Of a stretch of 64,000 bases of DNA, positions 13,521-57,571 are shown piece by piece. The stretch is from an uncultured Bacilli bacterium. Lineage in GTDB: Bacteria; Bacillota_I; Bacilli_A; RF39; UBA660. The stretch covers positions 5,721 to 69,720 of the forward strand of contig CAKOMQ010000003.1 in assembly GCA_934096715.1 (NCBI GenBank). Direction: 5' to 3'. A program made the position numbers and the translations under genes. A model generated the notes under the pieces. The model saw only the letters and a list, made by a program, of their open reading frames with translations, was not told where the DNA came from and searched no databases. Numbering within the stretch: the stretch's first letter is position 1; every line of letters starts with the position of its first letter.

Positions 13521-13874
13521 ATGATTAATTACGAAACAAAACGTATTGAAAATCCAATCCAAGGATACGAAATGTTAACTAGAGAAGTTATTAAGGAAAA
13601 CTTTATAAACAAAAGTTATGATAAGGTAGCTAGTATGTGTGGACTAATTATAGATGAAGCTATTGAATATGCTATTCAATACTCTGCTTTAAGTAAAGCA
13701 ATTGAAAGACTTTCTAGCGAATCTTTAGACACAACAGCGGAAGTTGAAGAAAGAAAAGCACTACTTGATAACTTAACAATTATGGCTGTAGAAAAAGATA
13801 ATTACATTAAAGAAAATGGATATGGAGCTTATCAAGACTTAATGAAAAGTAAAGAAAGTTCTAGTTCAAGATAA
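13521..13874 (+). CDS. Hypothetical acidic protein (ends ...KESSSSR)
   Basis: 117-aa ORF with a GGGGGA SD and its own promoter and terminator. No family recognised. Confidence 0.5.
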   Translation: MINYETKRIENPIQGYEMLTREVIKENFINKSYDKVASMCGLIIDEAIEYAIQYSALSKAIERLSSESLDTTAEVEERKALLDNLTIMAVEKDNYIKENGYGAYQDLMKSKESSSSR

Positions 13875-13877
13875 CGG

Positions 13878-13901
13878 AAATGTGCAAATGCGCATTTTTT
13901 T
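13878..13901 (+). terminator. Intrinsic terminator
   Basis: AAATGTGCA/TGCGCATTT hairpin followed by a T7 run. Confidence 0.6.
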
Positions 13902-13958
13902 CTTGCAAATAATCAAGTTATTTGATAGAATGAATATGTATTTTTAAGGAGGGAATTT

Positions 13959-14222
13959 ATGCCAAATATTAAAAGTTCTAAAAAAGCAGTTAAAGTAATT
14001 GCTAAGAAAACAAATGAAAATCACGAACTTAAAGCTAGAGTTAACAATTTAATTAAAGCTTGTGAAAAAGAAATCAAAGCTGGTAATGCAGAAAACGCTA
14101 ATAACAAGTTTAAAGAATTACAAACAAATATTGATAAAGCTTTACAAAAAGGTTTAATTAAAGAAAATAAAGTTAATCGTGAAAAATCACGTATAAATGC
14201 TAAAATTAAAAATATGAAGTAG
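13959..14222 (+). CDS. rpsT: 30S ribosomal protein S20
   Basis: 87 aa; MPNIKSSKKAVKV... is the typical S20 N-terminus. Preceded by TTGCAA-17-TAGAAT and a GGAGGG SD. Confidence 0.9.
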   Translation: MPNIKSSKKAVKVIAKKTNENHELKARVNNLIKACEKEIKAGNAENANNKFKELQTNIDKALQKGLIKENKVNREKSRINAKIKNMK

Positions 14223-14274
14223 TTGTCTACTTTATTTTTTTTTGATAAAATTAACTTTAGAAGGGAGTCTTAAT

Positions 14275-15222
14275 ATGAAGAAAACTTTGGTAATAATAAC
14301 TTCTATTCTTTTAATAGGCTTAGTAATATACAAAAATGAGTCTATCAGTGATTATTTAAGTAAAAGACTTGTTAATAATCAAAAATTAATAATAAAAGAT
14401 AAAAATGAATATAAAAAAGATTATAATTTTTTGTACGTTAAAAATAGTAAGGATTATATTCCCTACTCTAAGCAAGATTTAATAGATATTGTATTTAGTA
14501 TGTTAAATAACGGTTGGGATGATTTTACATTCTACTGTCCAAGTGAATATACTAGTTGCATAAGTGATATGGAGACTCTTACTCGTGACGACACAACACT
14601 TGCTCACGTAAATAACTTTGTTCATCCATATAATAGCTATGACAAAATAAAAACTACTATAAACGAAAGCGGCGAAATAAATATTAAGATAACTAAATTA
14701 TATACAGAAGATGATATTAATTCTATTAATAAAAAAGTAGATGAAATAATTAGTAGCAACTATAATGAGAGTGATACTGATAATAATAATTTAAAAAGAA
14801 TTCATGACTATATAATAAATAATGTTAAATATGATGTAACACGTAATAATGAAGGTAACAGTAAATATAGGTCTTTCATGGCTTATGGTCCTGCTTTAGA
14901 AGGATATGCAACTTGTAACGGATATGCTGACTTGATGGCTATAATATTATCCAAGTTAGGGTACGAAAATTTTAAAGTAGCTACTACCCTATATGAACTT
15001 AAAGATAAAGACGCCGGACATATCTGGAATGCTGTTAAGATAGATAATAAATGGTTACATATAGATTTAACTTGGGATGATCCAGTTAGTGATGATGGTA
15101 AAGATTACTTGTATCATAAGTATTTCTTAGTTAATGAACAAGAATTAAAAGAAGCTGACAGCGGAGATGTCAACGTTGATGAACATAATTTTAATAAAAG
15201 TGTTTATTTAGAATTTAAATAA
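14275..15222 (+). CDS. Transglutaminase-like superfamily protein, membrane anchored
   Basis: Start MKKTLVIITSILLIGL (GGGAG SD). Cys/His/Asp core: ATCNGYADLMAIILSKLG...GHIWNAVKIDNKWLHIDLTWDD. Confidence 0.65.
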   Translation: MKKTLVIITSILLIGLVIYKNESISDYLSKRLVNNQKLIIKDKNEYKKDYNFLYVKNSKDYIPYSKQDLIDIVFSMLNNGWDDFTFYCPSEYTSCISDMETLTRDDTTLAHVNNFVHPYNSYDKIKTTINESGEINIKITKLYTEDDINSINKKVDEIISSNYNESDTDNNNLKRIHDYIINNVKYDVTRNNEGNSKYRSFMAYGPALEGYATCNGYADLMAIILSKLGYENFKVATTLYELKDKDAGHIWNAVKIDNKWLHIDLTWDDPVSDDGKDYLYHKYFLVNEQELKEADSGDVNVDEHNFNKSVYLEFK

Positions 15223-26645: not shown

Positions 26646-26726
26646 AAATACCACCAGAATTATATTATCAAATTTTGACTTTTTAAGCAACGATTTTTGA
26701 TATATAATATTTGCAAGGTGATTAGT

Positions 26727-27485
26727 ATGAAATTATATATTGATGCAAAATCTGAAATTAATGATAATGATTTAAAAGAAGCTAGTAATTTAATAAGAAA
26801 TGGAGAACTAGTTATATTCCCTACTGAGACCGTATACGGCATTGGTGCAAACGGACTTGACGCCGAAGCTTGTAAGAAAATTTTTACTGCTAAAGGACGT
26901 GTTAGTGATAACCCATTAATACTTCACGTAAGCAATGTAGATATGATTAAAACAATTACTAAAAATATTACTGAAATTGAAAAAAAATTAATAGACACAT
27001 ATTTCCCCGGCCCCTTAACTATAATTTTTAATAAAAGTGATATAGTTCCACCTATAGTAACCGGTGGTTTAGATACTGTCGGCGTAAGAATGCCTAGTAA
27101 CGAAATTGCGAACAAATTAATTAGTTATGCTCAAGTCCCCATCGCAGCACCTTCTGCTAACATATCAGGGCGTCCTAGTGGAACATATGTAAACGATATA
27201 ATAGGTGAACTAGAAAATAAGGTTTCATGCATTATTAATGGCGGTGACACAGATATTGGGCTTGAATCAACTGTAATTAAAGTTGAAAATGATGAGATTA
27301 TTATTTTAAGGCCTGGCAAAATAACTCTTGAAGATTTTCAAGAAAAAGGGTTTAATGCAAGACTTGATGAAAATATATTTAAAACTATAAGTAAAAACGA
27401 TACTGTTTTATCTCCAGGAATGAAATATAAACATTACGCACCAAAGAAAAAAAGTTCGCCTTTTAATTTATTCCCCCAATTTTGA
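26727..27485 (+). CDS. tsaC: L-threonylcarbamoyladenylate synthase, YrdC domain (Sua5-type gene with disrupted C-terminus)
   Basis: Start MKLYIDAK. Motifs are VIFPTETVYGIGAN, KGRVSDNPLILHV, PGPLTIIF, VGVRMP and APSANISGRPS. The reading frame ends 14 codons after KYKHYAP. Confidence 0.75.
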   Translation: MKLYIDAKSEINDNDLKEASNLIRNGELVIFPTETVYGIGANGLDAEACKKIFTAKGRVSDNPLILHVSNVDMIKTITKNITEIEKKLIDTYFPGPLTIIFNKSDIVPPIVTGGLDTVGVRMPSNEIANKLISYAQVPIAAPSANISGRPSGTYVNDIIGELENKVSCIINGGDTDIGLESTVIKVENDEIIILRPGKITLEDFQEKGFNARLDENIFKTISKNDTVLSPGMKYKHYAPKKKSSPFNLFPQF

Positions 27486-27757
27486 CAAATTTATTGAGAA
27501 AGTTAACGAATTAGAAAAAGATAATAATTTGGTTGTTAGTGTGCAGGAAGAATAATATAAATAAATTTAAAAATGCCATTAATATGGGAGAAACACTAGA
27601 AGAAATATCTCATAATATATTTCATATATTAAGAGAAATTGACAATACAAGTTATGATTTAGTAGTAATTGAAGGAGTTAAAAAAGAAAAACTTGGTACT
27701 GCAATAATGAATCGGCTTATAACGGCTTGCTCTCACAATTATATAGAGTTCAAATAA
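27454..27757 (+). pseudogene. Frameshifted remnant of the Sua5 C-terminal domain
   Basis: Frame +1 from 27454 reads VRLLIYSPNFDKFIEKVNELEKDNNLVVSVQEE*. Frame +2 (ORF 27533-27757) reads ...EEISHNIFHILREID...VVIEGVKKEKLGTAIMNRLITAC, the Sua5-domain ending. Two shifts are needed to join these to 26727-27485. Confidence 0.55.
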
Positions 27758-31346: not shown

Positions 31347-31658
31347 CTATTTCAATAGATGTATAAAGTTCATTTTTTCATATGCCACTCTAGTAATAAT
31401 AATCAAATTGTTTTCTGTATTTACAATATAAAAAATAATAAAATTCTTTACTTTAGTGCATCTATAATGATTGCATAATTTTGAAATTGGTTTATACTCT
31501 GATGAACCACAAGGGAAAATCAAAATATTATCTATACCTTTAATAAAAGCCTTTGATAATTTATTAGCTGCTCTTTTATTATTTAAACAGTTTGCAACAT
31601 AGTAAATTATATTATCCATGTCTCTTTTAGCAATAGGTAAGATTTCCAATTTATACAT
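31347..31658 (-). CDS. Type II toxin, RelE/ParE family
   Basis: 103 aa; MYKLEILPIAKRDMDNIIYYV start, with a 1-nt gap from the upstream antitoxin. Confidence 0.7.
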   Translation of the reverse strand: MYKLEILPIAKRDMDNIIYYVANCLNNKRAANKLSKAFIKGIDNILIFPCGSSEYKPISKLCNHYRCTKVKNFIIFYIVNTENNLIIITRVAYEKMNFIHLLK

Positions 31659-31659
31659 A

Positions 31660-31941
31660 TTAATCCTTGTTAATAATACTATTCATACTACTTTTAACTT
31701 CTTCTAAAGTGTATCTTTTTGTTGTTTTTTTCATTTCTTCTTCTGCTTCTTTTAATTTTTCATATATTATTTTATCATAATTAGCAGTTTTAATTTCAAA
31801 AGGTAATTTTTGCTCTCTTAATACTGCCTTTATAAACATATTAACCGCAGTAGAAACGTTTAGGCCAACACTATTACAAAATTGTTCAAAGTTTTTCTTA
31901 TCATTCGCATTCACTCTAACATTCATTGTTAATGATTCCAT
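31660..31941 (-). CDS. Type II antitoxin, RelB/DinJ family
   Basis: MNVRVNANDKKNFEQFCNSVGLNVSTAVNMFIKAVLREQKLPFEI is a DinJ-like RHH fold. The ORF-track start at 31959 lies upstream of the predicted TSS, so ATG 31941 or 31926 is more likely. Confidence 0.75.
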   Translation of the reverse strand: MESLTMNVRVNANDKKNFEQFCNSVGLNVSTAVNMFIKAVLREQKLPFEIKTANYDKIIYEKLKEAEEEMKKTTKRYTLEEVKSSMNSIINKD

Positions 31942-31963
31942 AATACCACTCTTTTCCAAACTA

Positions 31964-37838: not shown

Positions 37839-37845
37839 TTCCTAT

Positions 37846-37884: not shown

Positions 37885-37897
37885 TAACAGTTATTAC

Positions 37898-37929: not shown

Positions 37930-38017
37930 ATTAAGCTTAATTAAATTTAATCGTAGAAGAAAATATATATAAGAAAAAAAGATAAGCACGTTAACTTATC
38001 TACATATTTATATTATC

Positions 38018-38212
38018 TTATCTAGAATAACTACTAAAATTATCTAAATCAATTCCATAAGCAAGTGCAACTTCAATAACATCATCATCACTACCATTGC
38101 TTGCTCTTTCTAAATCAAACATAACCCCAGGATTTATAACAATCATGAGAGTACCTAAATAGTCAATTAAATATCTTCTTAAACTTTCAATATCAATATA
38201 ATCTGAATACAT
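38018..38212 (-). CDS. Small acidic hypothetical protein (ends ...DNFSSYSR)
   Basis: 64-aa ORF whose start overlaps the stop of the CHAP gene. A strong terminator (AGATAAG-8 nt-CTTATCT, then T7) follows downstream. Confidence 0.45.
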   Translation of the reverse strand: MYSDYIDIESLRRYLIDYLGTLMIVINPGVMFDLERASNGSDDDVIEVALAYGIDLDNFSSYSR

Positions 38213-39186: not shown

Positions 39187-39246
39187 AATCTCATCCTTCT
39201 CCATATCTATTATAATCGAGTGTTTCTTAATAAGCAATACTTCCAA

Positions 39247-39660
39247 GTTCTTTAATCTTTTTATACATTATAATTTCATTCCATGCTTACTCTATTAAAC
39301 TTTTAAACATAAGATTTTTAGCTACATCACTAAATTCTAATTTATAAAGCATTTCACTTTTAAATCTTTCCTTACTACCTTGGCTTATGATTTTCTTATA
39401 AGTTTTCCATTCTCTATTTTTTAAATACATAAGGAATTATTTTTAACTATAAATGGTTCTAACTAATTTAATATAAGCATCCATATATTCATAATGCCTA
39501 GAATTTAATGAATCTTCTAACATTAATGATGTAATAATAATACTTTCTATATTACTTTTACCAAATTCAACTACTAAAATATTACTTGCTTCACATAAAA
39601 CTTCGTTATCATTTCTAATAGAGTCCCATAACTCATAAACTATCTCCCAAATACTAGGTA
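39247..39660 (-). pseudogene. Possible decayed gene remnant
   Basis: One minus-strand frame reads ...PSIWEIVYELWDSIRNDNEVLCEASNILVVEFGK...LVRTIYS*K*FLMYLKNREWKTYKK...FKSLIE*. It has no canonical start and two in-frame TAA codons. Confidence 0.3.
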
Positions 39661-40542
39661 TTATTTCTTTTTCTTTATAAGTCTATAGCTGCCATATCCT
39701 AAACCACCTACAATACCTATGGTAATAACATTATCAATAATAGCGGAACCATTAGTTTCATCAGCTTTATTTACTATAAGAGTATAAGTTTTTTTAGTGC
39801 CATCTTCTGCTGTTACTTCAAAAATGACAGAGTTTTTACCATCTTTTAAATTTTTATCACCAGTAACAAATAGATTAGCATTAACATCCTCTAGTTCATA
39901 TTTATAGTTAAGATTAATCATGCTTGTAGGCAAATTTATTTCAGCAGTATCATTTTCAAATGTAATTTCTTTATTATCAACGTATATTTTAACATTTGTA
40001 TTTTTACTTAAATCTTTTCTTGTAACATTTAATACATAATTTTTTGAATTACCATTTTCAGCTGTAACAATAATATTTACAGTATTATCTCCAATAACTA
40101 AAGTACTTTTATCTATCTTATAAGTTGCTTTAGAATCATTTAATTCAACTTTTATATCAACAGTACTTTTTGAAGTTTGATATGTCATAATATCATTAAC
40201 ATCTATTTGATTATTATCAACAATAATAGATTTAATAGAATTATCACTACTTTTAGCTACTGTTTTTTTAATAGTTGGAGTGTTATTAGTAATTTGATTA
40301 TTTGATTCAACTTTAGAAGAACTATTAATCATACTCCCATCTGCATTAAAAACTTGTCCTAAAGAATTAGTATAGGTATTACCACTATGACAATGATATT
40401 CATCTTGATTCAATCCCCATCTAGCACAATTAGTTCTGCAATAATGACAACCATTGCTGTCAGTTCTTCCAGGATGAGCAAACGTGTTATAAGGACATAA
40501 AATCACACATAAAATTGTTATAACAAATAAATCTTTCTTCAT
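39661..40542 (-). CDS. YHYH-domain protein with two cadherin-like beta-sandwich domains and C-terminal TM anchor
   Basis: Signal peptide; HPGRTDSNGCHYCRTNCARWGLNQDEYHCH (YHYH-type metal-binding motif). Two modules end in YVLNVTRK and YTLIVNK. TM segment ITIGIVGGLGYGSY. Confidence 0.65.
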   Translation of the reverse strand: MKKDLFVITILCVILCPYNTFAHPGRTDSNGCHYCRTNCARWGLNQDEYHCHSGNTYTNSLGQVFNADGSMINSSSKVESNNQITNNTPTIKKTVAKSSDNSIKSIIVDNNQIDVNDIMTYQTSKSTVDIKVELNDSKATYKIDKSTLVIGDNTVNIIVTAENGNSKNYVLNVTRKDLSKNTNVKIYVDNKEITFENDTAEINLPTSMINLNYKYELEDVNANLFVTGDKNLKDGKNSVIFEVTAEDGTKKTYTLIVNKADETNGSAIIDNVITIGIVGGLGYGSYRLIKKKK

Positions 40543-40619
40543 TCTAATCTCACCACAAATAAATTATACCACATTTATCTTATTAAAAAATATTAATTAA
40601 ATTAAAAAGTAGCAGTTAT

Positions 40620-41093
40620 TTATCTGCTACTAAATCTATTTTTAGGCGATCTAATTCTTATCATTTCTGAATCATCACTAGAAAATACTGGATCATCTAA
40701 ACCATTTACTCTACAAACTAGTTTAGCCATCTTATTAATTACTTCTTCATCATAATTTTCCAATATTTCAAACATTAATGATTCATCAAAAGCAATAATT
40801 GATTTTGTTTTTCCAACGCCATTTACAAGTCTTAATAACCCAAGTGCTTGAGCCATCATAAGAGCTGTATCTAAATCCATATAATTGCTCTCTGGAAACA
40901 TTTTATCCTTCACAGGGAGTATATCTTCAAATAGTTCTTTAAACTCATCATCTAAATATAATTCATATAATTTTCTTTTAAAATCTTCATGTACTATAAT
41001 CGAGGAACAACTATAACCAAAATTTAACGCACAATAAAGTTCTATAAAATCAAACTTACTAAATTTAACATCTTCAGCATTTTCTTTAATCAT
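40620..41093 (-). CDS. Hypothetical acidic protein with basic tail ...MIRIRSPKNRFSSR
   Basis: 157-aa ORF, translationally coupled to 41111-41680 (GGAAAGGATGG SD). The last codons form the terminator stem. Confidence 0.5.
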   Translation of the reverse strand: MIKENAEDVKFSKFDFIELYCALNFGYSCSSIIVHEDFKRKLYELYLDDEFKELFEDILPVKDKMFPESNYMDLDTALMMAQALGLLRLVNGVGKTKSIIAFDESLMFEILENYDEEVINKMAKLVCRVNGLDDPVFSSDDSEMIRIRSPKNRFSSR

Positions 41094-41110
41094 AATATTA
41101 CCATCCTTTC

Positions 41111-41680
41111 CTACCTTGAATATTCATTTTCTTCTTGTTCATCAACCCAATGTATATTCTCAAAATTCATACTTAACTTATCATATATACTATGTACTTC
41201 TTCTAAAGTAACACCTTCTTTATACCAATTAAAATACTTTTTATATAATTCGCTTCTTTTAAATAGTAATAATCTACCTGTAACCGTGAATAAATCTAAT
41301 ACTTTATTATCATCTGATTCTTCGACTCTTGAAAAACCAAATCGTTCTAAATCTATTGCTTTATCTAATGTAAGAACTGATTTTAAAGAACAAGGTTCAA
41401 TGTCGTTTCTTTCTTCGATAAAATCTGTTAAATAAGATAACACTTTAAATGCATCTTCTCTAGACATCCCATTAGGTAATTTAAAAGGTTTACAAGGCCA
41501 ATCTATTACACCTACATTACTATCCTTATTACCATCATATTCATCAATCCTATGATAGTTAATAAAATGTAATCTATATATATTTTGATTCTCAACTTCA
41601 TGATCTTCTAAATCAACTTGAAATTCATAATCTCTTGTAAACTTTTCATTAATCTTTGTAAACATATTTTTTAAAGCCAT
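41111..41680 (-). CDS. Hypothetical acidic protein (ends ...EQEENEYSR)
   Basis: 189-aa ORF with an AAGGAG SD and its own consensus promoter. Confidence 0.5.
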   Translation of the reverse strand: MALKNMFTKINEKFTRDYEFQVDLEDHEVENQNIYRLHFINYHRIDEYDGNKDSNVGVIDWPCKPFKLPNGMSREDAFKVLSYLTDFIEERNDIEPCSLKSVLTLDKAIDLERFGFSRVEESDDNKVLDLFTVTGRLLLFKRSELYKKYFNWYKEGVTLEEVHSIYDKLSMNFENIHWVDEQEENEYSR

Positions 41681-41722
41681 TACAACAACTTACTCCTTTT
41701 TTTTAAACTTATCTTACCGAAT

Positions 41723-41751
41723 ATTATAATAAAACATTATTCTCATTTCAA
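41723..41751 (-). promoter_or_regulatory. Consensus sigma-A promoter for 41111-41680
   Basis: Minus strand: TTGAAA (41751-41746), 17 nt, TATAAT (41728-41723). The -35 overlaps the def 3' end. Confidence 0.6.
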
Positions 41752-42330
41752 GTATTTAACTACTAAACCATCTTCATATTCACATGTTTTAGATATTATT
41801 TCATAAGGATGTTCTAATCTGAATAATTTTCTTTCTTCTGGTGCCATATTAAGAATTTCTTCAGCAATATCCATATGAAGTATTCCGTCTAAATGATCTA
41901 ACTCATGAGATAAAACGGTTGCAGAAAAGCCTTCAAATGTATCTTCATGTAAATTTTTATCTTCATCATAGTATTTTACTACAAGTTGATATGGTCTATT
42001 TACCAGCCCCATATTATCTAAACAACTTAAACAAGCTTCCCAATATCTGGTATGGCCTTTTTTTGATATAGCAACTGGATTAATTAATACAACTGATTCA
42101 TTGTAATCCTTATTTTCAAGTGGTACATCTAGTCTTGTATTTTTTAAGTATATAATTCTTTTAGGAATACCTATTTGTACTGCAGCCAATGCAAAGCACT
42201 CTGTTTCAAGACAAAATTCTTCTAATAAGTTTATATCTTCTTTATAAGATTTATTTTTTAAATCAACAGACTCAGAAATTTGCCTTAAGTATTTCTCATC
42301 ATTTAAAATAGTTTTTCTTTTAATTTCCAT
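41743..42330 (-). CDS. def: Peptide deformylase
   Basis: Motifs GLAAVQIG-like (ALAAVQIGIPKR), EACLS and HELDHLDG. Confidence 0.85.
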   Translation of the reverse strand: MEIKRKTILNDEKYLRQISESVDLKNKSYKEDINLLEEFCLETECFALAAVQIGIPKRIIYLKNTRLDVPLENKDYNESVVLINPVAISKKGHTRYWEACLSCLDNMGLVNRPYQLVVKYYDEDKNLHEDTFEGFSATVLSHELDHLDGILHMDIAEEILNMAPEERKLFRLEHPYEIISKTCEYEDGLVVKYLK

Positions 42331-42541
42331 AATAATTTCTCCCTATATTATTATCTTTTAGTATTTCAACAAAAATAATAATCTTATTATTGTAAGTAAA
42401 TATTCAATTTCAACCATAACTATATTCCCGACATAACCACCGTCATCATAAACTATTATATTTTCAGATTCTAAACAGTAGTCAATAAAGTTAGAATCAA
42501 TTATTAATTTATTTCAATATATAAAGAGACAAATGTTTTAT

Positions 42542-43483
42542 TTATCTACTACATCTGTTTTTAGGCTGTCTAATTCGTATCAGGTCATCACCAGAAAATT
42601 CTTGAGTACCTAATTCATCAACTAAATGATTACAAACTTCCAACCCAGAAGAACATATTGAATTAAACTCTATTATATCAATTACTTCTTTATCATCCAT
42701 TAATACCTGCCCTACATCCAAAACATAACTGCTTGGAAAATTTGGTACAGACGCAATTCTCTTAATTTGGTTTTCGATAAACATCCTAACTTCGTTTGGA
42801 ATCTCAGTTGGATAATCAATATAAGATCTAGAAATGCTTAATAAAGTATTATTCAAAACAAATACTCGGTATTCTTTACAATCCATATCATTTTCCACAT
42901 CTTCAATTGGTTCAAAAACGTCAGAAAGAAAAATAGAATCCTTTGAAGATATATTCCACAATGGCGGATTTGTTACAAAATATTTTTTGTCTTCTAAATC
43001 TACATATCCAAAATATTTTAGAACACAATGATTTTGACTTTTTTCTACAGTTTTCAAAAAGATTTTTTTAAAAAATAACCTATATTTTTCAGAATTATTT
43101 TGGAAGTCTTCATAAGTTGTTTGTATAATTCTTCTGTGTACAGGTTGAATTTTTTGCGGCCAATTAGTAATTATTTTTAAATCTTCACTAGTTTGAATAC
43201 TTAGCGCACCATTTTCCTCTAACTGACTTAAAAGTTCCTTTTCAGTTGATATAAAACTTCGTGGAAATATAACTTTACCTCTAACGTTTATTTCTCTACC
43301 ATCCTTGTAAAATTTTTCAGTGGTTCTATCAAATACTATTAACATATCACTCGTTTTAGCATCATCCATCAATTCTTGTTCCTTAGTTTTTATCCAAATA
43401 GTATTCTCGTCATCATTTTCACTTACATTATAATCTGTCATTCCTAAACAAGGAACACTAAAACAAAAATAATCAATTTTCAA
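42542..43483 (-). CDS. ATP-grasp-like protein (DUF4343-type) with basic tail ...LIRIRQPKNRCSR
   Basis: 313-aa ORF with a TTG start after a GGAGTGA SD. KEYRVFVLNNTLLSISRSY and VLDVGQV...VIDIIEFNSICSSGL resemble the C-terminal half of ATP-grasp folds. Confidence 0.5.
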   Translation of the reverse strand: MKIDYFCFSVPCLGMTDYNVSENDDENTIWIKTKEQELMDDAKTSDMLIVFDRTTEKFYKDGREINVRGKVIFPRSFISTEKELLSQLEENGALSIQTSEDLKIITNWPQKIQPVHRRIIQTTYEDFQNNSEKYRLFFKKIFLKTVEKSQNHCVLKYFGYVDLEDKKYFVTNPPLWNISSKDSIFLSDVFEPIEDVENDMDCKEYRVFVLNNTLLSISRSYIDYPTEIPNEVRMFIENQIKRIASVPNFPSSYVLDVGQVLMDDKEVIDIIEFNSICSSGLEVCNHLVDELGTQEFSGDDLIRIRQPKNRCSR

Positions 43484-43515
43484 AAAAATATCACTCCAAT
43501 ACTATCTTATTTTTT

Positions 43516-43551
43516 ATTTAAACTAAAACTCGGACTACTAAAGCCCGAGTT
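43516..43551 (-). terminator. Terminator after the tRNA pair
   Basis: AACTCGG-11 nt-CCGAGTT hairpin followed by a T-rich tract on the minus strand. Confidence 0.5.
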
Positions 43552-43563
43552 CTTCATCTAATT

Positions 43564-43648
43564 TGGTGCGAGTAAAGGGACTCGAACCCCCACGGATCTC
43601 TCCACTAGATCCTAAGTCTAGCGCGTCTACCAATTCCGCCATACTCGC
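43564..43648 (-). tRNA. tRNA-Leu (anticodon TAG)
   Basis: Reverse complement GCGAGTA...CTTAGGA...long variable arm...GGTTCGAGTCC...TACTCGCACCA. It folds as a type II cloverleaf with an encoded CCA. Confidence 0.9.
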
Positions 43649-43655
43649 AATTTTA

Positions 43656-43732
43656 TGGTGGACCTCGTAGGACTCGAACCTACGACCGCCCGGTTATGAG
43701 CCGGATGCTCTAACCAACTGAGCTAGAGGTCC
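43656..43732 (-). tRNA. tRNA with CAT anticodon (elongator Met or lysidine-dependent Ile2; not initiator-like)
   Basis: Reverse complement GGACCTCTAGCTCAGTTGGTTAGAGCATCCGGCTCATAACCGG...GGTTCGAGTCC...GAGGTCCACCA. The 1-72 pair is Watson-Crick and there is no GGG/CCC anticodon stem. Confidence 0.85.
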
Positions 43733-53516: not shown

Positions 53517-53554
53517 ACATAATATAATTAATAATAAATAGGCCTTTCTGTAAA

Positions 53555-53706
53555 ATAAAAAGAAAACTCTATCAATTAAGATAGAGATTCTCACATTTTC
53601 GTTCGGGATAATTTATTGCTCGCACCACCCGAGAGCGAGAAACATTGTCGACCGGAATAATTTATTACTCGCACCATCCGGGAGCGAGAAACATTTTCTT
53701 TAATGC
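53555..53706 (-). ncRNA. Candidate ~150-nt small RNA with two tandem pseudoknot modules
   Basis: It has its own promoter (53741-53713). Two ~49-nt modules are each predicted to fold as an H-type pseudoknot (CUCGC/GCGAG plus CCGGA/UCCGG or UCGGG/CCCGA). The terminator is CTCTATC-TTAATT-GATAGAG followed by TTTTCTTTTTATTTT (53586-53551). Confidence 0.55.
53598..53697. repeat. Tandem direct repeat, 2 copies of ~49 nt (plus partial third start)
   Basis: Equivalent positions are 49 nt apart (for example CTCGC at 53619 and 53668). The copies are about 85% identical, and the differences cluster in one paired stem. Confidence 0.85.
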
Positions 53707-53712
53707 AATTTG

Positions 53713-53741
53713 AATATACAATAATTAATAGCGAATGTCAA
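53713..53741 (-). promoter_or_regulatory. Promoter of the candidate sRNA
   Basis: Minus strand: TTGACA (53741-53736), 17 nt, TATATT (53718-53713). Confidence 0.55.
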
Positions 53742-53810: not shown

Positions 53811-54053
53811 TTAGAACATTTTATCTATATTATTTGGAACATTTCCCCCTACTACTTTACTAATTATTTTATCTTCTTGTTCCTTACTTACTTTTTTACC
53901 AGTCATATTACTTAAAGTACTTATAACTTCTCTCAATGTTTTTTCATCTTTCATATTACCATCTTGTAATTTTTTAGCAAGATCCATAATAGTATTTTTA
54001 TCTACCTTAGTTCTCTTTTCAACCTTCTTAAAAAAAGAATCATTTAAATTCAT
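53811..54053 (-). CDS. SpoVIF-like small protein (stage VI sporulation protein F family)
   Basis: Likely start MNLNDSFFKKVEKRTKV (AGGTGA SD). The pattern FFKKVEK.T.V....I..LAKKLQ..N.KDE.T.R.VI...S...GK.VSKE.EDKI resembles SpoVIF. Confidence 0.55.
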   Translation of the reverse strand: MNLNDSFFKKVEKRTKVDKNTIMDLAKKLQDGNMKDEKTLREVISTLSNMTGKKVSKEQEDKIISKVVGGNVPNNIDKMF

Positions 54054-54122
54054 AAGTATCACCTAGTAGTATTTTATGCAAGCAATTATTTTTTGACAAA
54101 GAAAAAATAGCCATTAAGACTA

Positions 54123-54911
54123 TTATCTACTTTCTCCGTTTCTAACTTCATCAATATCAGACATAAGACGCCTAGATTCTAAACCTTTATTTAATAATTC
54201 ATTATATTCCTGTAAAGTAATTATTTCCCAGTTTTTTAAATTAAGATAACTTTCTACTCCATATACTCCAGTATTTGCAGTAGGTAACCCTTCTTTTCTT
54301 CCTAATCTAGTTTTAGCATAGTAAATTTCATCATCACTAACTAATTTCTTTATAAGGATATTTTTATCAACAACATTAACTATATTTACAAAGTAATTTG
54401 TTTCACCTTTTTTTATAGTATGCCAGAATTTCACAAGATATTCATCATATTCTCCTACTAAAGTATAAGTACAATCATCACAAGTAACACATATTTTATC
54501 TTTAATACTAGGACGAATTCCCATATTAAACATTTCATGATATGCAGTACATGAATGAGTATAATTATGATATGTTTCTGGATGAGTGTCATTTAAATTA
54601 AAACTTATATCAAAAGATACAATATTATTAGAATTTAATTTTTCTATATATTCAAGACACGTTTTAACAAATGGCTCTTCACAAGCTATTTTAAAAGAAT
54701 GGATATCTGTATTCGCACCATCTATAGAAACAATTGCATCAGTATTATTATTGATTCCATAAGCATTTATACTTCTATCAAATTCTGCTACTATCTCATC
54801 AGTGACTTCTTTATTCCAAAGTTTCTTAGCTCCTTTAAAAATTAAGTTCTCAACATCCCTAATAACAGTATTAGATCGATCATATTTTAATCTTGTTTCT
54901 AAATTTTTCAT
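54123..54911 (-). CDS. Paralogue 1 of a four-member family of unknown function (ends ...VRNGESR)
   Basis: Likely start MKNLETRLKYD (GGAG SD). Shares LKYD, a TYD-like strand and the NYTHSCTAYH motif with paralogue 2. Confidence 0.55.
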   Translation of the reverse strand: MKNLETRLKYDRSNTVIRDVENLIFKGAKKLWNKEVTDEIVAEFDRSINAYGINNNTDAIVSIDGANTDIHSFKIACEEPFVKTCLEYIEKLNSNNIVSFDISFNLNDTHPETYHNYTHSCTAYHEMFNMGIRPSIKDKICVTCDDCTYTLVGEYDEYLVKFWHTIKKGETNYFVNIVNVVDKNILIKKLVSDDEIYYAKTRLGRKEGLPTANTGVYGVESYLNLKNWEIITLQEYNELLNKGLESRRLMSDIDEVRNGESR

Positions 54912-54949
54912 ATATATCTCCAAATATAGAAAAATAGTCATTATGACTA

Positions 54950-55729
54950 TTATCTACTTTCTCCTACTCTTCCTTCTTCACTTGATAGCATTACTGCTCT
55001 TGAAGCCATTATTTCAGCAATCTTTTCACTATATTCTAATTCATCTATTTTAATAAAATCTAATGAATCAATAAGTTTTTGAGCATATAATGCACCATCG
55101 TTAGCAGAAATAGAACTTACATTTTCAGGTAAAATACTTTTACTATATGATACTTTACCTTCATTAGAAATTTTTCTATAAACATTATTCTTACTATCAA
55201 CTGTTACAAGATCATCAAAAATTCCATGTTCATGAGTTAATTCAGAATGTTCAAGTTCTATTAAACTATCATTATATTTAGCAACTAATCTTTCATAAGT
55301 ATCATCAACTCTGTTATTAATAGTTTCAACTATTCTTGGAGTAACATATTCATAGAAAGAATAAGCACCAGTACATGAATGTGTATATTCACGTTCCATA
55401 TCACCATTATTAACTGTTAAATCATTTATAACTGAGTATTCAACTATTCCATTATCATGATTATTTTCATCATAAGTAAGACTAGCATTCATTTTGTCAT
55501 TCTTGTGAGTTAATTCTATTTTATGAGAACCAATTCCATACTCATACGCTTTTACAGTTGTTATACTAGTAGAACCAAAACTATTCTTAGTTTTAACAAA
55601 TTCTTCTCTTATTTGACGTGTTATACGGTCATTAGATATTTTCTTACTATACTTACCAATAACACTTTCTATTGCATCAGCAACTATATTTTTCTTATCA
55701 TATTTTAATTTTATATCAATATTTTCCAT
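54950..55729 (-). CDS. Paralogue 2 (ends ...GRVGESR)
   Basis: Likely start MENIDIKLKYD (GGGGGA SD). Contains ASLTYDEN and REYTHSCTGAY motifs. Confidence 0.55.
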   Translation of the reverse strand: MENIDIKLKYDKKNIVADAIESVIGKYSKKISNDRITRQIREEFVKTKNSFGSTSITTVKAYEYGIGSHKIELTHKNDKMNASLTYDENNHDNGIVEYSVINDLTVNNGDMEREYTHSCTGAYSFYEYVTPRIVETINNRVDDTYERLVAKYNDSLIELEHSELTHEHGIFDDLVTVDSKNNVYRKISNEGKVSYSKSILPENVSSISANDGALYAQKLIDSLDFIKIDELEYSEKIAEIMASRAVMLSSEEGRVGESR

Positions 55730-55762
55730 CTTTTTTTCCCCCTTCAATTAAAATACATCAAT

Positions 55763-55791
55763 ATAATAGCACATTTTTATCTATCTGTCAA
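55763..55791 (-). promoter_or_regulatory. Consensus extended -10 promoter for paralogue 2
   Basis: Minus strand: TTGACA (55791-55786), 17 nt, TATTAT (55768-55763), with TGC upstream. Confidence 0.65.
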
Positions 55792-55833
55792 GTTTTTGTA
55801 AATAGTAAACAAAAAGTAGACAACATTTACTTA

Positions 55834-56622
55834 TTATCTACTTGTTCTTCCTGTATCAATTCCTAAATTATTTAAAACATCATTATATTCGTTTTCATAG
55901 TCTCTAAAAGAAATTGGTGTATAATTTAAGCTAATTGCAAAATCATTTAAATATTCAATTCCTTTAAGTGAACTAGGCATTTCATCTTGAGTAGCATCAA
56001 CTTCTGCTTTCATGTATGAATCAAATAAATTATCATCTCTTACAATTGTCGTTCTTTTTAAGAATTCATCATCTTCTTCGTTATAAGTATATGCTTCTTC
56101 ACTTGAAGCATCACCTTCACTTTTAATAACAGTAAAACTTCTTAAACTATCATCATAAACAGCTTCCATAGAAGTACAATAAGATACACCATCATGAATA
56201 CCTTCTGTTACTAAAGATTCTATAGTTTTAGGAATTTTTGCATCATGGTACCCATAATTATGAACATAACGATTAGTTGTATAATCTTGAAACTTTTCAC
56301 CTATAATTTTTTTACAAAATTCAAGTATACATTCTACATTCTTGTCTTCTCCACGTTTTTCATCATAAGTAATAGTAATTGTTGTATCTAAATAATTAAT
56401 AGTTAAAGACATTCTTCTAGAATTTCCTTCATATGTATATGAATCATACGAATACTTAATATCCTTCTCAACTAGTATTTTTTCTTCTTCATCTTGGAAT
56501 CTATCAAGAATATGTTTCCTTATAACACATTCTGGCGTTCCACCTAATTTTCTTTTTATTTCTTTTTCAATTTCATTGAAATAAGTATGATTTTGATTTA
56601 ATTCTTGAGCATTCTTTTCCAT
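55834..56622 (-). CDS. Paralogue 3 (ends ...DTGRTSR)
   Basis: Likely start MEKNAQEL (GGGGGA SD). Contains ITITYDEK, NRYVHNYGYH and GDASSEEAYTY motifs shared with paralogue 4. Confidence 0.55.
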   Translation of the reverse strand: MEKNAQELNQNHTYFNEIEKEIKRKLGGTPECVIRKHILDRFQDEEEKILVEKDIKYSYDSYTYEGNSRRMSLTINYLDTTITITYDEKRGEDKNVECILEFCKKIIGEKFQDYTTNRYVHNYGYHDAKIPKTIESLVTEGIHDGVSYCTSMEAVYDDSLRSFTVIKSEGDASSEEAYTYNEEDDEFLKRTTIVRDDNLFDSYMKAEVDATQDEMPSSLKGIEYLNDFAISLNYTPISFRDYENEYNDVLNNLGIDTGRTSR

Positions 56623-56654
56623 AAATATTTCCCCCTTGCATATAAATCTTATAA

Positions 56655-56683
56655 ATAATAACACTTTTTTATAAATATGTCAA
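56655..56683 (-). promoter_or_regulatory. Consensus extended -10 promoter for paralogue 3
   Basis: Minus strand: TTGACA (56683-56678), 17 nt, TATTAT (56660-56655), with TGT upstream. Confidence 0.65.
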
Positions 56684-56758
56684 ATTTAACATACTTAAAA
56701 TCATATTAAAGTAACTAACTAAATAATAATATCATTTTACAATTAAATGTAATATAGT

Positions 56759-57571
56759 TTATCTAGCAATTCCTTGCTCCTTTTCTTCACTAATTAAAAT
56801 TCCTCTAGACTTCATAACAGCATTTACCATTTTTTGATATTCATCATAATTGATTTCAACAAATTCAGCACCGTTAATAACTTCATTTACATAATTCCAT
56901 CCACTAAAATTAGTTGGAATTTCTTTATCCTTTTCGAAAACTCCTTTGCTATATATTTCAGTTTTATTATTATCCTTTACCACACAATGTTTTTTCACTA
57001 TTTCTTTTGTACCACGGTCGATTTGATAAAATTCTTCACTAGAATCATTGCCTTCTCTTTTGTATACTCTGTAATCATTAATAATATCATTAAAACTACT
57101 TTCTATCTCATTTTCAAATTCTACCCCATTAGCAATACCTTTGTTAATAAATATTTCACGATTACTTGGAATACCTTGTTGAAGCACATTGAAAGAATTT
57201 ACATAACGATTTATAGTTGTTGTTACATCTTCTCCTTTTTTAACAGTCTCGCTAAATTCAGCAGTAATAAATTTACCAACTTCATTATATTCTTGATCAT
57301 AAGTTAAACTGATAGAAGTGTCATTATCTCCTAAAGTTAACTTCATTTTTTCTCTTCCATTTTCATCATCATTTTTATCAAAAGATATAGTTAAATCCTT
57401 TTTAGAGAGTTTTTGTTGCTCTTCTAAAAATTTACCTAATGTATTATTTTTCATAATTCCATTACCTGCTGGTTCTAACTTTCTTTTAAGTTCAGTTTCG
57501 ATTTCATAAATATTTAGACCATCCACAACTGTTCTCCCATTAATTTTTTTAAACATTCCTAAAAATTCCAT
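56759..57571 (-). CDS. Paralogue 4 (ends ...KEQGIAR)
   Basis: AAGGAG SD 6 nt before the ATG. Contains ISLTYDQE, NRYVNSFN and GNDSSEEFYQI motifs. Confidence 0.55.
   Translation of the reverse strand: MEFLGMFKKINGRTVVDGLNIYEIETELKRKLEPAGNGIMKNNTLGKFLEEQQKLSKKDLTISFDKNDDENGREKMKLTLGDNDTSISLTYDQEYNEVGKFITAEFSETVKKGEDVTTTINRYVNSFNVLQQGIPSNREIFINKGIANGVEFENEIESSFNDIINDYRVYKREGNDSSEEFYQIDRGTKEIVKKHCVVKDNNKTEIYSKGVFEKDKEIPTNFSGWNYVNEVINGAEFVEINYDEYQKMVNAVMKSRGILISEEKEQGIAR

What the first reader, a model, noticed from the sequence alone, without database searches (positions are those of the whole stretch)
13521..57571. Nine function-unknown proteins from unrelated families all end in Ser/Ala-Arg-COOH: candidate shared C-terminal tag
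The endings can be read directly from the translations. They are 13521-13874 SSSSR, 38018-38212 SSYSR, 40620-41093 RFSSR, 41111-41680 NEYSR and 42542-43483 NRCSR. The paralogue array gives 54123-54911 NGESR, 54950-55729 VGESR, 55834-56622 GRTSR and 56759-57571 QGIAR. In addition, 4533-5006 ends GISRK. None of the roughly 45 recognisable housekeeping or envelope proteins in this window ends in SR. The carriers fall into at least five sequence families with no detectable similarity to one another. They lack signal peptides and TM segments and are acidic. The terminal SR is usually preceded by an acidic/Ser-rich patch (SDIDEV, SSEEG, SEEKEQ, SSDDSE, SGDD, DEQEENE, DLDNF). Several have their own near-consensus sigma-A promoters. 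An ending shared across unrelated folds looks like a recognition tag (export, packaging, C-terminal ligation or proteolysis) rather than common descent. I know of no described bacterial system keyed on a C-terminal Ser-Arg. One caveat applies. In two genes the AGT-AG(C)-AGA codons also form the 5' arm of the terminator hairpin (40608-40631 and 55815-55842), so a nucleotide-level constraint may contribute.
Basis: partly seen in the sequence, partly recalled or inferred. Interest (0 to 1): 0.78.

Follow-up and report, generated by a model that had tools for sequence, protein, structure and literature searches.

The report
Species-specific Ser-Arg endings on orphan proteins
Nine accessory proteins from five unrelated families in one uncultured gut bacterium all end in Ser/Ala-Arg, far more often than chance or base composition predicts, but the ending is confined to this species, is absent from orthologues in related species, and has no identified reader, so it is a real but unexplained pattern and not yet a demonstrated tag.

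Summary
Of 57 genes in the window, 8 end in -SR and 1 in -AR, against about 0.2-0.7 % under every null I could build. The signal is at amino-acid level: four different Ser codons are used and the 3' flanks share no common DNA. All carriers are acidic, cytosolic proteins with no informative annotation. Several have consensus sigma-A promoters. They fall into five families with no profile-level similarity.

Independence is lower than nine. The tails of 40620 and the ATP-grasp 42542 are one module kept alike by gene conversion. Two array paralogues share their 3' DNA.

The ending is species-restricted. Orthologues of three testable families in related gut Bacilli end instead in basic "h-h-K-K" tails. 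598 ORFs (45 aa or longer) in 36 related loci give only 2 SR. In the 41111 family the ending arose by truncation exactly after an internal S-[K/R]. Within the divergent paralogue array (20-31 % identity) the final Arg is invariant.

Terminator overlap, a DNA motif and composition are rejected as causes. The linked R2K ATP-grasp does not co-vary with the ending.

My best reading, at about 0.4, is a lineage-specific C-terminal recognition motif with an unknown reader. Coincidence remains a serious rival. A whole-proteome count would decide.

The parts
13521..13874 (+). 117-aa acidic orphan ending KESSSSR. It has its own TTGACA-17-TACAAT promoter and lies between rplS and rpsT.
   Evidence: No Pfam, PHROG, NCBIfam or PADLOC hit. 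No relative found in JGI metagenomes. 13 strain variants all end SSR.
38018..38212 (-). 64-aa acidic protein ending FSSYSR. Its start overlaps the stop of the CHAP/cadherin-like surface protein gene 38212-39246.
   Evidence: Identical in strain L134. The 4 cluster variants all end YSR.
40620..41093 (-). 157-aa helical protein ending SSDDSEMIRIRSPKNRFSSR. It belongs to a family of 57 representatives that otherwise end in h-h-K-K tails.
   Evidence: Weak, non-significant profile match (E 0.3) to SaPI1 CpmB.
40620..40682 (-). Shared about 20-aa tail module, copy 1 (FSSDDSEMIRIRSPKNRFSSR plus stop).
   Evidence: BLASTP 17/32 identical to the end of 42542. A strain variant of the ATP-grasp, P0360, carries an almost identical tail, EFSSDEPEMIRIRIPKNRFSSK, which points to gene conversion.
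40608..40631 (-). Intrinsic terminator whose 5' stem arm is made of the AGT-AGC-AG codons of the SSR ending.
   Evidence: 8-bp stem followed by a T-run. This is the only carrier where a stem clearly overlaps the ending.
41111..41680 (-). 189-aa member of a widespread gut-Bacilli family (384 homologues). Here it is truncated to end ...EQEENEYSR.
   Evidence: Relatives continue ...YS[KR]VLKxxK. The AGG-TAG-G of the ending overlaps the SD-like AAGGTAGGAAAGGA of the downstream gene. AF2 pLDDT 84, tail below 50, no PDB fold match.
42542..43483 (-). R2K-clade ATP-grasp (313 aa) ending SGDDLIRIRQPKNRCSR, which is tail module copy 2 (42542-42595).
   Evidence: Pfam R2K_2 1.4e-7 and R2K_3 6e-6. Of the 76 listed hits, only the window's own 100 % cluster has this tail; the other 75 (29-80 % identity) do not, and most end in K-rich tails such as QFVKKRLIKKN.
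54123..54911 (-). Array paralogue 1 (262 aa) ending DEVRNGESR.
54950..55729 (-). Array paralogue 2 (259 aa) ending EEGRVGESR, with its own TTGACA-17-TATTAT promoter at 55791-55763.
   Evidence: AF2 pLDDT 79: helices plus a 12-strand meander sheet, last 11 residues below 50, no PDB match.
55834..56622 (-). Array paralogue 3 (262 aa) ending IDTGRTSR, with its own promoter at 56683-56655.
   Evidence: The 47 %-identical homologue P0004 ends TRKGR.
56759..57571 (-). Array paralogue 4 (270 aa) ending EKEQGIAR. Most strains have GITR.
54103..54153 (-). 3' module (last codons, stop and hairpin) shared at DNA level with 54930-54980 and with a fifth paralogue in strain L081.
   Evidence: Repeat D8, 84 % identity. 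3' ends aligned.
4533..5006 (-). 157-aa acidic orphan ending DDGISRK, a near miss with one extra Lys.
43564..43732 (-). tRNA-Leu(TAG) and tRNA-Met genes immediately upstream of the ATP-grasp. This is a possible island boundary for the 36.4-43.5 kb accessory block.
   Evidence: No att-like repeat found.

Best explanation
The ending -[Ser, less often Ala/Thr/Gly]-Arg-COOH is a genuine, protein-level, lineage-restricted feature. It sits on the flexible C-terminal tails of a set of well-expressed, acidic, cytosolic accessory proteins in one species of uncultured, probably spore-forming gut Bacilli (26 % G+C).

It was acquired in place, several times:
- by truncating a conserved longer tail exactly after an internal S-[K/R] (41111);
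- by remodelling and then copying a basic tail between two neighbouring, unrelated genes (ATP-grasp 42542 and 40620);
- by retention through 20-31 % identity divergence in a tandem paralogue array.

I read it as a short C-terminal recognition motif: a free-carboxylate Arg after a small residue, held out on an acidic or Ser-rich linker, and bound in trans by a factor that is not encoded in this window.

The most plausible outcome is control of protein stability or turnover. That could work through an Arg-keyed route such as the McsB/ClpC phospho-arginine pathway of Bacilli, or through a tail-binding adaptor. Docking onto a common hub protein is the second option. Export is the least likely, because no secretion machinery or signal is linked.

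Shown: the pattern, its enrichment, its amino-acid-level encoding, its multiple in-situ origins and its species restriction.
Inferred: that it is under selection, that something reads it, and what the consequence is.
For: - Enrichment is 20-70 fold over every null.
- Relatives with the same base composition and similar orphan genes do not show the ending: 2 SR among 598 ORFs (45 aa or longer) in 36 related loci, and 6 [SA]R among 822 ORFs (60 aa or longer) pooled from all AT-rich related loci. Generic causes such as composition, stop context or the universal K/R bias cannot account for that.
- Four different Ser codons are used, and no DNA is shared outside the two converted pairs.
- The carriers are unrelated by BLAST, hhalign and predicted fold.
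- 9 of the roughly 14 soluble proteins in the window that lack an informative annotation carry the ending, and none of the housekeeping genes does.
- In the array the final Arg is one of only 8 invariant columns out of 259, across eight sequences at 18-33 % identity to the reference. The 47 %-identical P0004 keeps -GR.
- The terminal R is unchanged in all full-length strain variants of the nine clusters.
- The ATP-grasp and 40620 tails are kept alike in different strains, which suggests the tail matters to both proteins.
- The tails are modelled as low-confidence ends.
- Precedent exists for unrelated proteins sharing a C-terminal Arg-dependent hook: 80alpha SP and SaPI1 CpmB share an RIIK motif, and R202K is lethal (PMC5644958).
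Against: - No reader was identified.
- The ending is not conserved in orthologues of other species for all three testable families.
- At 90 % identity the 41111 orthologue already has Leu at -2.
- Rare strain variants end -SRK or -SSK.
- Strain-level variability of the last two positions is not lower than the protein average, although the test has low power.
- Two pairs of carriers owe their shared ending to DNA copying.
- The AGG-TAG of 41111 doubles as part of the next gene's ribosome-binding site.
- 17 further genes of the same species beyond the window ends add no new carrier.
- With only 5-7 independent events, and an unknown number of windows and patterns inspected by the first stage, a look-elsewhere correction could absorb much of the significance.
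Confidence: 0.4

Rival explanations
1. Coincidence inflated by non-independence. The carriers are young, fast-evolving accessory genes with Ser-rich low-complexity tails whose 3' ends are reshuffled by local gene conversion, truncation and duplication. The universal preference for a basic last residue (AGA is the only common Arg codon at 26 % G+C) then makes S-R-stop a likely chance outcome in a handful of families. No dedicated reader exists.
For: - DNA-level copying of 3' ends is demonstrated for 54123/54950/P0006 and for 40620/42542.
- The tails are Ser-rich: SSSSR, SSYSR, FSSR.
- Arg and Lys are 1.8- and 2.3-fold enriched at the last position across bacteria, and AGA/AGG are among the enriched codons (PMC7246954).
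- The ending is not conserved in orthologues.
- S changes to L in a sister strain.
- No extra carriers appear in 17 flanking genes.
- The region is plastic: the ATP-grasp and def are deleted and 40620 is decaying in L134.
Against: - Even with only 5 independent families the binomial p is about 2-5e-5.
- Equally AT-rich relatives, with the same universal biases, show 0.7 %.
- Three carriers (13521, 38018, 56759) share no DNA with any other carrier.
- The terminal Arg is invariant across 20-31 %-identical paralogues.
Confidence: 0.35
2. The ending is a generic optimisation of expression. Polar or basic last residues improve termination and protect against C-terminal proteolysis, and strongly transcribed new genes were selected for such an ending. 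There is no specific recognition.
For: - In M. pneumoniae, charged and polar last residues raise protein level up to four-fold, mainly through degradation rate. The K/R enrichment is stronger in abundant proteins (PMC7246954).
- Several carriers have consensus promoters and strong Shine-Dalgarno sites.
Against: - This predicts Lys rather than Arg, because Lys has the larger effect and is far commoner at 26 % G+C.
- It predicts the same pattern in relatives and in abundant housekeeping proteins. Instead, L19, S20, S15 and PNPase in this window end N, K, K and E, and relatives show 0.7 %.
Confidence: 0.1
3. The tails are substrates or docking sites of the linked R2K ATP-grasp ligase, which would extend or modify the C-terminus in the manner of RimK or tubulin-tyrosine ligase.
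For: - An R2K-clade ATP-grasp lies in the same accessory block as four carriers.
- The clade is predicted to modify proteins by peptide ligation (PMC4431377).
- The enzyme shares a 20-aa tail with the neighbouring 40620.
Against: - ATP-grasp orthologues at 46-80 % identity occur in species whose proteins lack SR endings.
- Strain L134 has deleted the ATP-grasp and def genes but keeps 38018, 40620 and 41111 with their endings.
- The 41111 family is not linked to the ATP-grasp in 36 other loci.
Confidence: 0.08
4. A nucleotide-level constraint explains the ending: the AGT-AGA-TAA region is conserved because it forms terminator stems or another DNA/RNA motif.
For: - The 40620 terminator stem is made of the AGT-AGC-AG codons.
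- AGTAGATAA occurs 8 times against 2.4 expected.
Against: - Only one carrier has a clear stem overlap.
- The Ser codons differ: AGT, TCT, TCA, AGC and GCT.
- Four of the eight AGTAGATAA copies are simply these gene ends, and three of those are paralogues.
- TAGATAA is barely enriched, 61 against 46+/-7, and the copies are scattered inside genes.
- The downstream sequences are unrelated.
Confidence: 0.03

Closest known systems
C-terminal degrons of bacterial AAA+ proteases (ssrA ...LAA for ClpXP; MuA-type basic C-motif 2; Sda ...VSS in B. subtilis) and the McsB/ClpC phospho-arginine mark of Bacilli
   Same: A very short determinant at the extreme, flexible C-terminus, shared by unrelated proteins and read in trans. 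The pArg route is keyed on arginine. (Own knowledge of these systems; none was tested here.)
   Different: No described bacterial degron is -S-R-COOH. Known ones end in non-polar residues or are internal marks. No protease or adaptor gene is linked. No degradation data exist. The ending is restricted to one species.
Peroxisomal targeting signal PTS1, [S/A/C]-[K/R/H]-[L/M]-COOH
   Same: The small-then-basic residue pattern at the very C-terminus of unrelated soluble proteins.
   Different: PTS1 is a eukaryotic organelle import signal. It requires the final Leu or Met, which is absent here, and there is no Pex5-like reader. This is a formal resemblance only.
Shared C-terminal docking hooks for capsid-like shells: the RIIK 'helix-and-hook' of phage 80alpha scaffolding protein and SaPI1 CpmB (PMC5644958), and encapsulin cargo-loading peptides
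   Same: - Unrelated proteins carry the same short basic C-terminal peptide to bind one partner.
- The Arg is essential (R202K is lethal).
- Relatives of three carrier families end in h-h-K-K hooks, and the window's 40620 and ATP-grasp tails contain (M/L)IRIR.
- The 40620 family profile weakly resembles CpmB (E 0.3).
   Different: - No capsid, encapsulin or other HK97-fold gene is in the window.
- The array protein model does not match HK97 folds.
- No homologues were found in phage genomes for 41111 or the ATP-grasp, or in IMG/VR for the 41111 family; the 40620-family scan could not be run.
- The SR dipeptide itself lacks the hydrophobic residues of these hooks.
C-terminal ligation by ATP-grasp enzymes (RimK on ribosomal protein S6, tubulin-tyrosine ligase; R2K clade predictions, PMC4431377)
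   Same: An R2K ATP-grasp is encoded among the carriers. Such enzymes act on protein C-terminal carboxylates or acidic tails.
   Different: Presence of the enzyme does not co-vary with SR endings. Known substrates end in Glu, not Arg.
Universal C-terminal Lys/Arg bias of bacterial proteomes (Weber et al. 2020, PMC7246954)
   Same: Arg (AGA/AGG) is favoured as the last residue, more so in abundant proteins, and it affects protein level.
   Different: That bias is about 1.8-fold, applies to all taxa and all protein classes, and favours Lys more. Here the excess is at least 20-fold, specific to S/A-R, and confined to one species and to its accessory proteins.

Membership tests
Intrinsic-terminator-constrained gene end | The last codons form part of the stem of the downstream terminator in all or most carriers | tested here: not met
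   Only 40620 has a clear overlap (8-bp stem at 40608-40631). No terminator-like hit overlaps the array endings. The downstream hairpins of 13521, 38018 and 54123 start after the stop codon.
Repeated DNA element or cassette boundary at gene 3' ends | Shared nucleotide sequence across the stop codon in unrelated carriers | tested here: not met
   Direct-repeat search and inspection found sharing only between 54123 and 54950 and between 40620 and 42542. The Ser codons differ.
ATP-grasp (R2K/RimK/TTL-like) C-terminal modification system | Ligase gene present | tested here: met
   42542-43483 matches Pfam R2K_2 (1.4e-7, above cut-off) and R2K_3.
ATP-grasp (R2K/RimK/TTL-like) C-terminal modification system | Phyletic and genomic co-occurrence of the ligase with the tagged substrates | tested here: not met
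   Orthologous ligases occur in species without SR endings. L134 lacks the ligase but keeps the SR genes. The array and 13521 are unlinked to it.
ATP-grasp (R2K/RimK/TTL-like) C-terminal modification system | Modified C-terminus observed on the protein | not testable with these tools
   Needs intact-mass or C-terminomic proteomics.
Encapsulin cargo-loading peptide or phage scaffold-type capsid hook | HK97-fold shell or capsid gene in the same locus or genome | tested here: not met
   No such gene among the 57 ORFs by inspection and Pfam on the unknowns. The array model has no HK97 match. The rest of the genome was not available.
Encapsulin cargo-loading peptide or phage scaffold-type capsid hook | Hydrophobic-basic consensus (GSLxIGSLK or RIIK) in the tail | tested here: inconclusive
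   It is present as (M/L)IRIR in 40620 and 42542 and as h-h-K-K in relatives of three families. It is absent from 13521, 38018, 41111 and the array.
C-terminal degron (ClpXP/ClpCP/Lon/FtsH) | Tail-dependent, protease-dependent instability | not testable with these tools
   Needs reporter half-life measurements with and without the tail, and with and without the protease.
C-terminal degron (ClpXP/ClpCP/Lon/FtsH) | Accessible, unstructured extreme C-terminus | tested here: met
   pLDDT is below 50 for the last 11 residues of the array model and the last 9 residues of the 41111 model.
PTS1 peroxisomal signal | [SAC]-[KRH]-[LM]-COOH in a eukaryote with Pex5 | tested here: not met
   The proteins end at the Arg, with no terminal Leu or Met. 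The organism is a bacterium.
Secretion signal (T4SS basic C-terminal tail, T7SS YxxxD/E, T1SS) | Linked secretion apparatus and matching motif | tested here: not met
   No secretion ATPase or channel gene is in the window. The tails are acidic overall except in 40620 and 42542. The rest of the genome was not available.
Conserved family-specific C-terminal residue (descent) | The ending is conserved in orthologues of other species | tested here: not met
   ATP-grasp: 75 of the 76 listed hits lack it, and only the window's own 100 % cluster has it. 41111: 1 of 120 listed homologues ends SR, and it is 97 % identical. 40620: only the 84 %-identical P0203 has it. The array family is confined to this lineage: 6 clusters among 5.8 billion sequences.

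The most novel reading that the evidence does not exclude
One species of gut Bacilli has evolved its own C-terminal address label, -[small]-Arg-COOH. It would have arisen by shortening or extending an older clade-wide basic 'hook' tail (h-h-K-K). The label marks a regulon of abundant accessory proteins for a dedicated reader. Candidates are an Arg-specific adaptor feeding ClpC/ClpX-type unfoldases, or a hub or compartment that collects them. This would be the first cytosolic, non-membrane C-terminal dipeptide tag described in bacteria, and an example of how such tags are born and spread between unrelated genes by tail swapping.
Probability: 0.25. Interest if true: 0.75.

Novelty: new variant of a known kind. 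Interest (0 to 1): 0.45.

Why it matters
If the ending is read by something, it would be a new and very compact bacterial C-terminal signal on soluble proteins. It could be discovered purely from sequence, much as PEP-CTERM-type sorting signals were.

It would also be caught at an early evolutionary stage. It is confined to one species and was acquired by truncation and tail copying, so both the birth of a tag and its reader could be studied.

It would give a first functional handle on several orphan families that are common in uncultured gut Bacilli, namely the 41111 and 40620 families and the paralogue array.

If it is not read by anything, the case is a useful calibration. It shows how far paralogy, local gene conversion and look-elsewhere effects can mimic a shared tag in a 64-kb window.

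Tried and rejected
- Alternative genetic code or read-through. rpoB and rpoC are intact under table 11, TGA is used as a stop, and frames after the stop give nothing coherent. Rejected.
- Shared DNA element, MITE or att site at the 3' ends. None was found beyond the two converted pairs.
- Terminator-stem constraint. It applies only to 40620.
- Synteny check in the nearest GTDB species (rpoC 67-87 % identity). The carriers are absent from the rpoBC flanks.
- Known families. The nine function-unknown carriers have no significant Pfam, PHROG, NCBIfam or PADLOC match. The ATP-grasp matches R2K and an unknown-function PHROG (phrog_7313, 5.9e-10).
- Fold recognition. Confident AF2 models of the array protein and of 41111 have no PDB match with E below 0.1. 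PDB sequence profiles give only weak hits: FabT/MarR at 0.0035 for 41111, and CpmB at 0.3 for 40620.
- Phage origin. No tblastn hit in 50,697 phage genomes for 41111 or the ATP-grasp. No IMG/VR hit for the 41111 family. The 40620 alignment was too divergent for a scan.
- Orthologues of 13521 in JGI metagenomes. None found.
- Extending the window. 17 more genes of the same species, 10 kb on each side, contain no additional SR ending.
- Strain-level constraint test. The terminal R is invariant, but the power is too low to separate selection from drift.
- Island hypothesis at tRNA-Leu. No att repeat was found.
- Sporulation-specific expression. The carriers have sigma-A-type promoters, not mother-cell-type promoters. 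Only the neighbouring spoVIF-like gene looks sporulation-related.

Full report
ORGANISM AND SETTING. The window is 26 % G+C. It carries rpoB and rpoC, ribosomal protein genes, cell-wall genes and two tRNA genes. The closest species representative has an 87 %-identical RpoC and is an 'uncultured Bacilli bacterium' from rabbit gut. The next ones are gut Bacilli MAGs. Exact copies of the window proteins occur on human gut (Hadza and others) metagenome contigs. Related genomes carry sspI and cotJB/cotJC, and the window has a spoVIF-like gene, so the lineage is probably spore-forming.

In a greedy non-overlapping gene set of 57 ORFs, 8 end -SR and 1 ends -AR. No recognisable housekeeping or envelope protein does. 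The nulls are as follows:
- Amino-acid composition gives 0.22 % for SR.
- All 8475 six-frame stop contexts of the window give 0.59 % SR and 0.08 % AR.
- Spurious ORFs give 1 of 438.
- 1373 ORFs around rpoC in 80 other genomes give 1 SR and 3 AR.
- 822 ORFs from equally AT-rich relatives give 6 [SA]R, or 0.7 %.
Fisher's test against the relatives gives p = 4e-8. Counting only five independent families among about 50 gives p of about 2-5e-5. The carriers are acidic (pI 4.1-5.3) and lack TM segments and signal peptides. Several have consensus promoters and strong Shine-Dalgarno sites.

IT IS A PROTEIN-LEVEL PATTERN, NOT A DNA-LEVEL ONE. The penultimate codons are AGT, TCT, TCA, AGC and GCT. Sequences downstream of the stop are unrelated except between paralogues. 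A repeat search finds 3'-end sharing only between 54123 and 54950. AGTAGATAA is over-represented only because four of its eight copies are these gene ends. TAGATAA is barely enriched and scattered. Only the 40620 terminator stem clearly uses the Ser-Ser-Arg codons. The array region has no scan-positive terminator overlapping the endings.

THE FAMILIES ARE UNRELATED, BUT THE EVENTS ARE FEWER THAN NINE.
- All-against-all BLAST finds only the expected array paralogy and a 32-residue match between the ends of 40620 and 42542. Profile-profile comparisons of the array, 41111 and 40620 families give probabilities below 1 %.
- AF2 models are confident and different. The array protein (pLDDT 79) has N- and C-terminal helices around a 12-strand meander sheet. 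41111 (pLDDT 84) is a mixed alpha/beta fold. Neither matches a PDB fold. In both, the last 9-11 residues have pLDDT below 50.
- 42542 is an R2K-clade ATP-grasp, not a protein of unknown function.
- Its tail (SGDDLIRIRQPKNRCSR) and that of 40620 (SSDDSEMIRIRSPKNRFSSR) are one module. In another strain the ATP-grasp tail reads SSDEPEMIRIRIPKNRFSSK, almost the 40620 version. That indicates recurrent gene conversion between two non-homologous genes 1.5 kb apart.
- In the array, 54123, 54950 and a fifth paralogue present in strain L081 share about 45 nt across the last codons, the stop and the hairpin.
- Independent origins are therefore: 13521; 38018; 40620 with 42542; 41111; and one to three within the array.

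WHAT ORTHOLOGUES SAY.
- Array family. It is tiny: six 90 % clusters among 5.8 billion proteins. All end SR or GR. Across 20-31 % identity between window paralogues, and 47 % identity to P0004, the final Arg is kept while the residue before it is S, A, T or G.
- ATP-grasp. Of the 76 listed hits, the 75 outside the window's own cluster (29-80 % identity) lack the ending. Most finish in Lys-rich tails such as ...TPQFVKKRLIKKN. Only the window's own 100 % cluster has NRCSR.
- 41111 family. It has 384 homologues. Relatives end ...(G)YS[K/R]VLK(Q)(Q)K. The window protein stops exactly after the S-R of that motif. Sister strains at 90 % identity end YLR through a TCA-to-TTA change. In the window the AGG-TAG of this ending is also part of the SD-like AAGGTAGGAAAGGA of the next gene.
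- 40620 family. Of 57 representatives, only the 84 %-identical P0203 keeps ...NRFSSR. The others end in tails such as ESGPVLIKK, HQFVKKSNKK and PKLILKK.
- 13521 has no detectable relative. 38018 could not be searched beyond its own cluster.
The other side of this result is that the endings arose in place, convergently, in this lineage.

SPECIES RESTRICTION ARGUES AGAINST GENERIC CAUSES.
- 36 loci from relatives that carry a 41111 homologue (598 ORFs of 45 aa or longer) contain 2 SR, 0 AR and 3 GR.
- A related species with a 79 %-identical ATP-grasp has none among about 23 genes.
- The universal bias toward Lys/Arg at the last position is 2.3- and 1.8-fold. AGA and AGG are enriched and the effect is stronger in abundant proteins (Weber et al. 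2020, PMC7246954). That bias is real but too small and favours Lys. It should act equally in the relatives and on the abundant housekeeping proteins of this window, and it does not.
- Seventeen additional genes of the same species beyond the window ends add no further carrier. The density seen in the window may therefore be local.

R2K ATP-grasps are predicted protein-modifying ligases (PMC4431377), and one sits among four carriers. However, its orthologues occur without SR endings. The 41111 family is not linked to it elsewhere. Strain L134 has a deletion fusing the ATP-grasp N-terminus to the end of def, yet it retains 38018 (identical), 41111 and 40620 with R-endings.

STRAIN-LEVEL VARIATION. 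Among 4-15 listed variants per 90 % cluster (only 2 for 40620), the terminal Arg never changes in full-length members. Position -2 varies once (A/T in the 56759 cluster). Positions -3 to -8 vary about as often as the rest of the protein, where 5-16 % of positions are variable in most clusters. Rare variants end ESRK or FSSK. This is compatible with constraint but has too little power to show it.

INTERPRETATION. Composition, stop-context, DNA-motif and terminator explanations are rejected. Two readings remain.
(a) A species-specific selected C-terminal motif. I put this at about 0.4, including roughly 0.25 for a dedicated reader.
(b) Coincidence amplified by paralogy, tail copying, Ser-rich tails and the unknown look-elsewhere factor of the first-stage scan. 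I put this at about 0.35.
I commit to (a) for four reasons. The relatives provide a matched control that the generic explanations fail. The ending arose by at least three different molecular routes. It is confined to one class of proteins. It is kept across very divergent paralogues.
For mechanism, I favour recognition of an exposed Arg carboxy-terminus that modulates stability or docking. Precedents include the Arg-dependent RIIK hook shared by 80alpha scaffolding protein and SaPI1 CpmB (PMC5644958) and, from my own knowledge, the arginine-keyed McsB/ClpC pathway in Bacilli. None of this is shown here.

A BROADER PATTERN SEEN ON THE WAY. In related gut Bacilli the ATP-grasp, 41111 and 40620 families all end in a short hydrophobic-basic 'hook' after a polar linker. 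So do several neighbouring unannotated ORFs. Examples are QFVKKR, SKVLKQQK, GPVLIKK, KKLVLKK and ENGPTLTKKRK. The motif occurs in the last 16 residues of 43-64 % of members, against 10 % of background ORFs. The window's (M/L)IRIR tails are the local version. The 40620 profile has a weak (E 0.3) resemblance to CpmB, including the helix-linker-hook layout. No phage or capsid link was found. This clade-level tail may be the older feature from which the SR endings were derived. It deserves its own test.

VERDICT. A whole-proteome count in this species against sister species, followed by tail-swap reporters, would settle it.

Noticed in passing
window 53548-53741 (- strand): Candidate small RNA in the 500-nt gap upstream of the methyltransferase/rpoB operon. 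It has a TTGACA-17-TATATT promoter, then two tandem 49-nt repeats (86 % identical), each with a CUCGC-N11-GCGAG hairpin, then a terminator hairpin and T-run. Each repeat contains UGGUGCGAG(U/C)AA, the reverse complement of the 3' acceptor end plus CCA of the tRNA-Leu(TAG) gene at 43564-43648. There is no Rfam family. The fold z-score is only -1.9.
   Followed up: partly
Relatives: P0008-P0082, P0087-P0202, P0204-P0259; loci L083, L095, L104, L106, L108, L113, L131: A clade-wide C-terminal hydrophobic-basic 'hook' (h-h-K-K; for example QFVKKR, SKVLKQQK, GPVLIKK, ENGPTLTKKRK) on at least three unrelated families, and on several neighbouring ORFs not assigned to any family, in related gut Bacilli. 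It is found in 43-64 % of family members against 10 % of background ORFs. It may be a separate shared tail motif and the ancestor of the window's tails.
   Followed up: partly
window 40620-40682 and 42542-42595; P0360: A 17-20-aa C-terminal module is shared by an ATP-grasp enzyme and an unrelated 157-aa protein 1.5 kb away. Strain variants show it is being homogenised by gene conversion.
   Followed up: yes
L134:138-263: In one strain a deletion fuses the N-terminus of the ATP-grasp to the last residues of the peptide deformylase paralogue, removing both genes. The 40620 orthologue there is 5'-truncated. The block is dispensable and decaying.
   Followed up: yes
window 36390-43732: An accessory block lies next to tRNA-Leu and tRNA-Met. 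It contains the R2K ATP-grasp, an extra peptide deformylase, 41111, 40620, two cadherin-like surface proteins (one with a CHAP domain), 38018 and an AbiEi/AbiEii toxin-antitoxin pair. It looks like a genomic island, but no integrase or att repeat was found.
   Followed up: partly
window 53811-54062 (-): A SpoVIF-family gene (Pfam 3.9e-20) lies directly downstream of the paralogue array, with a CATAAAATA element upstream that resembles a mother-cell (sigma-K type) -10 box. Relatives carry sspI and cotJB/cotJC. The lineage is probably spore-forming.
   Followed up: no
window 26697-27485 and 27533-27757 (+): The Sua5/TsaC-like ORF ends at a TGA after 262 aa and is followed by a 74-aa ORF in the same direction. 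This may be a split or frameshifted gene.
   Followed up: no
L002:7230-8066 and 9445-10230: In the species with an 83 %-identical RpoC, two paralogous 261-278-aa ORFs with no window homologue lie just downstream of rpoC and end ...LVWRR and ...FYFSR. This is an isolated SR ending in a related genome.
   Followed up: no
window 31347-31959 (-): A small two-gene cassette (99 aa and 103 aa) looks like a RelB/ParD-type antitoxin with a RelE/ParE-type toxin. That makes two toxin-antitoxin systems in the window.
   Followed up: no
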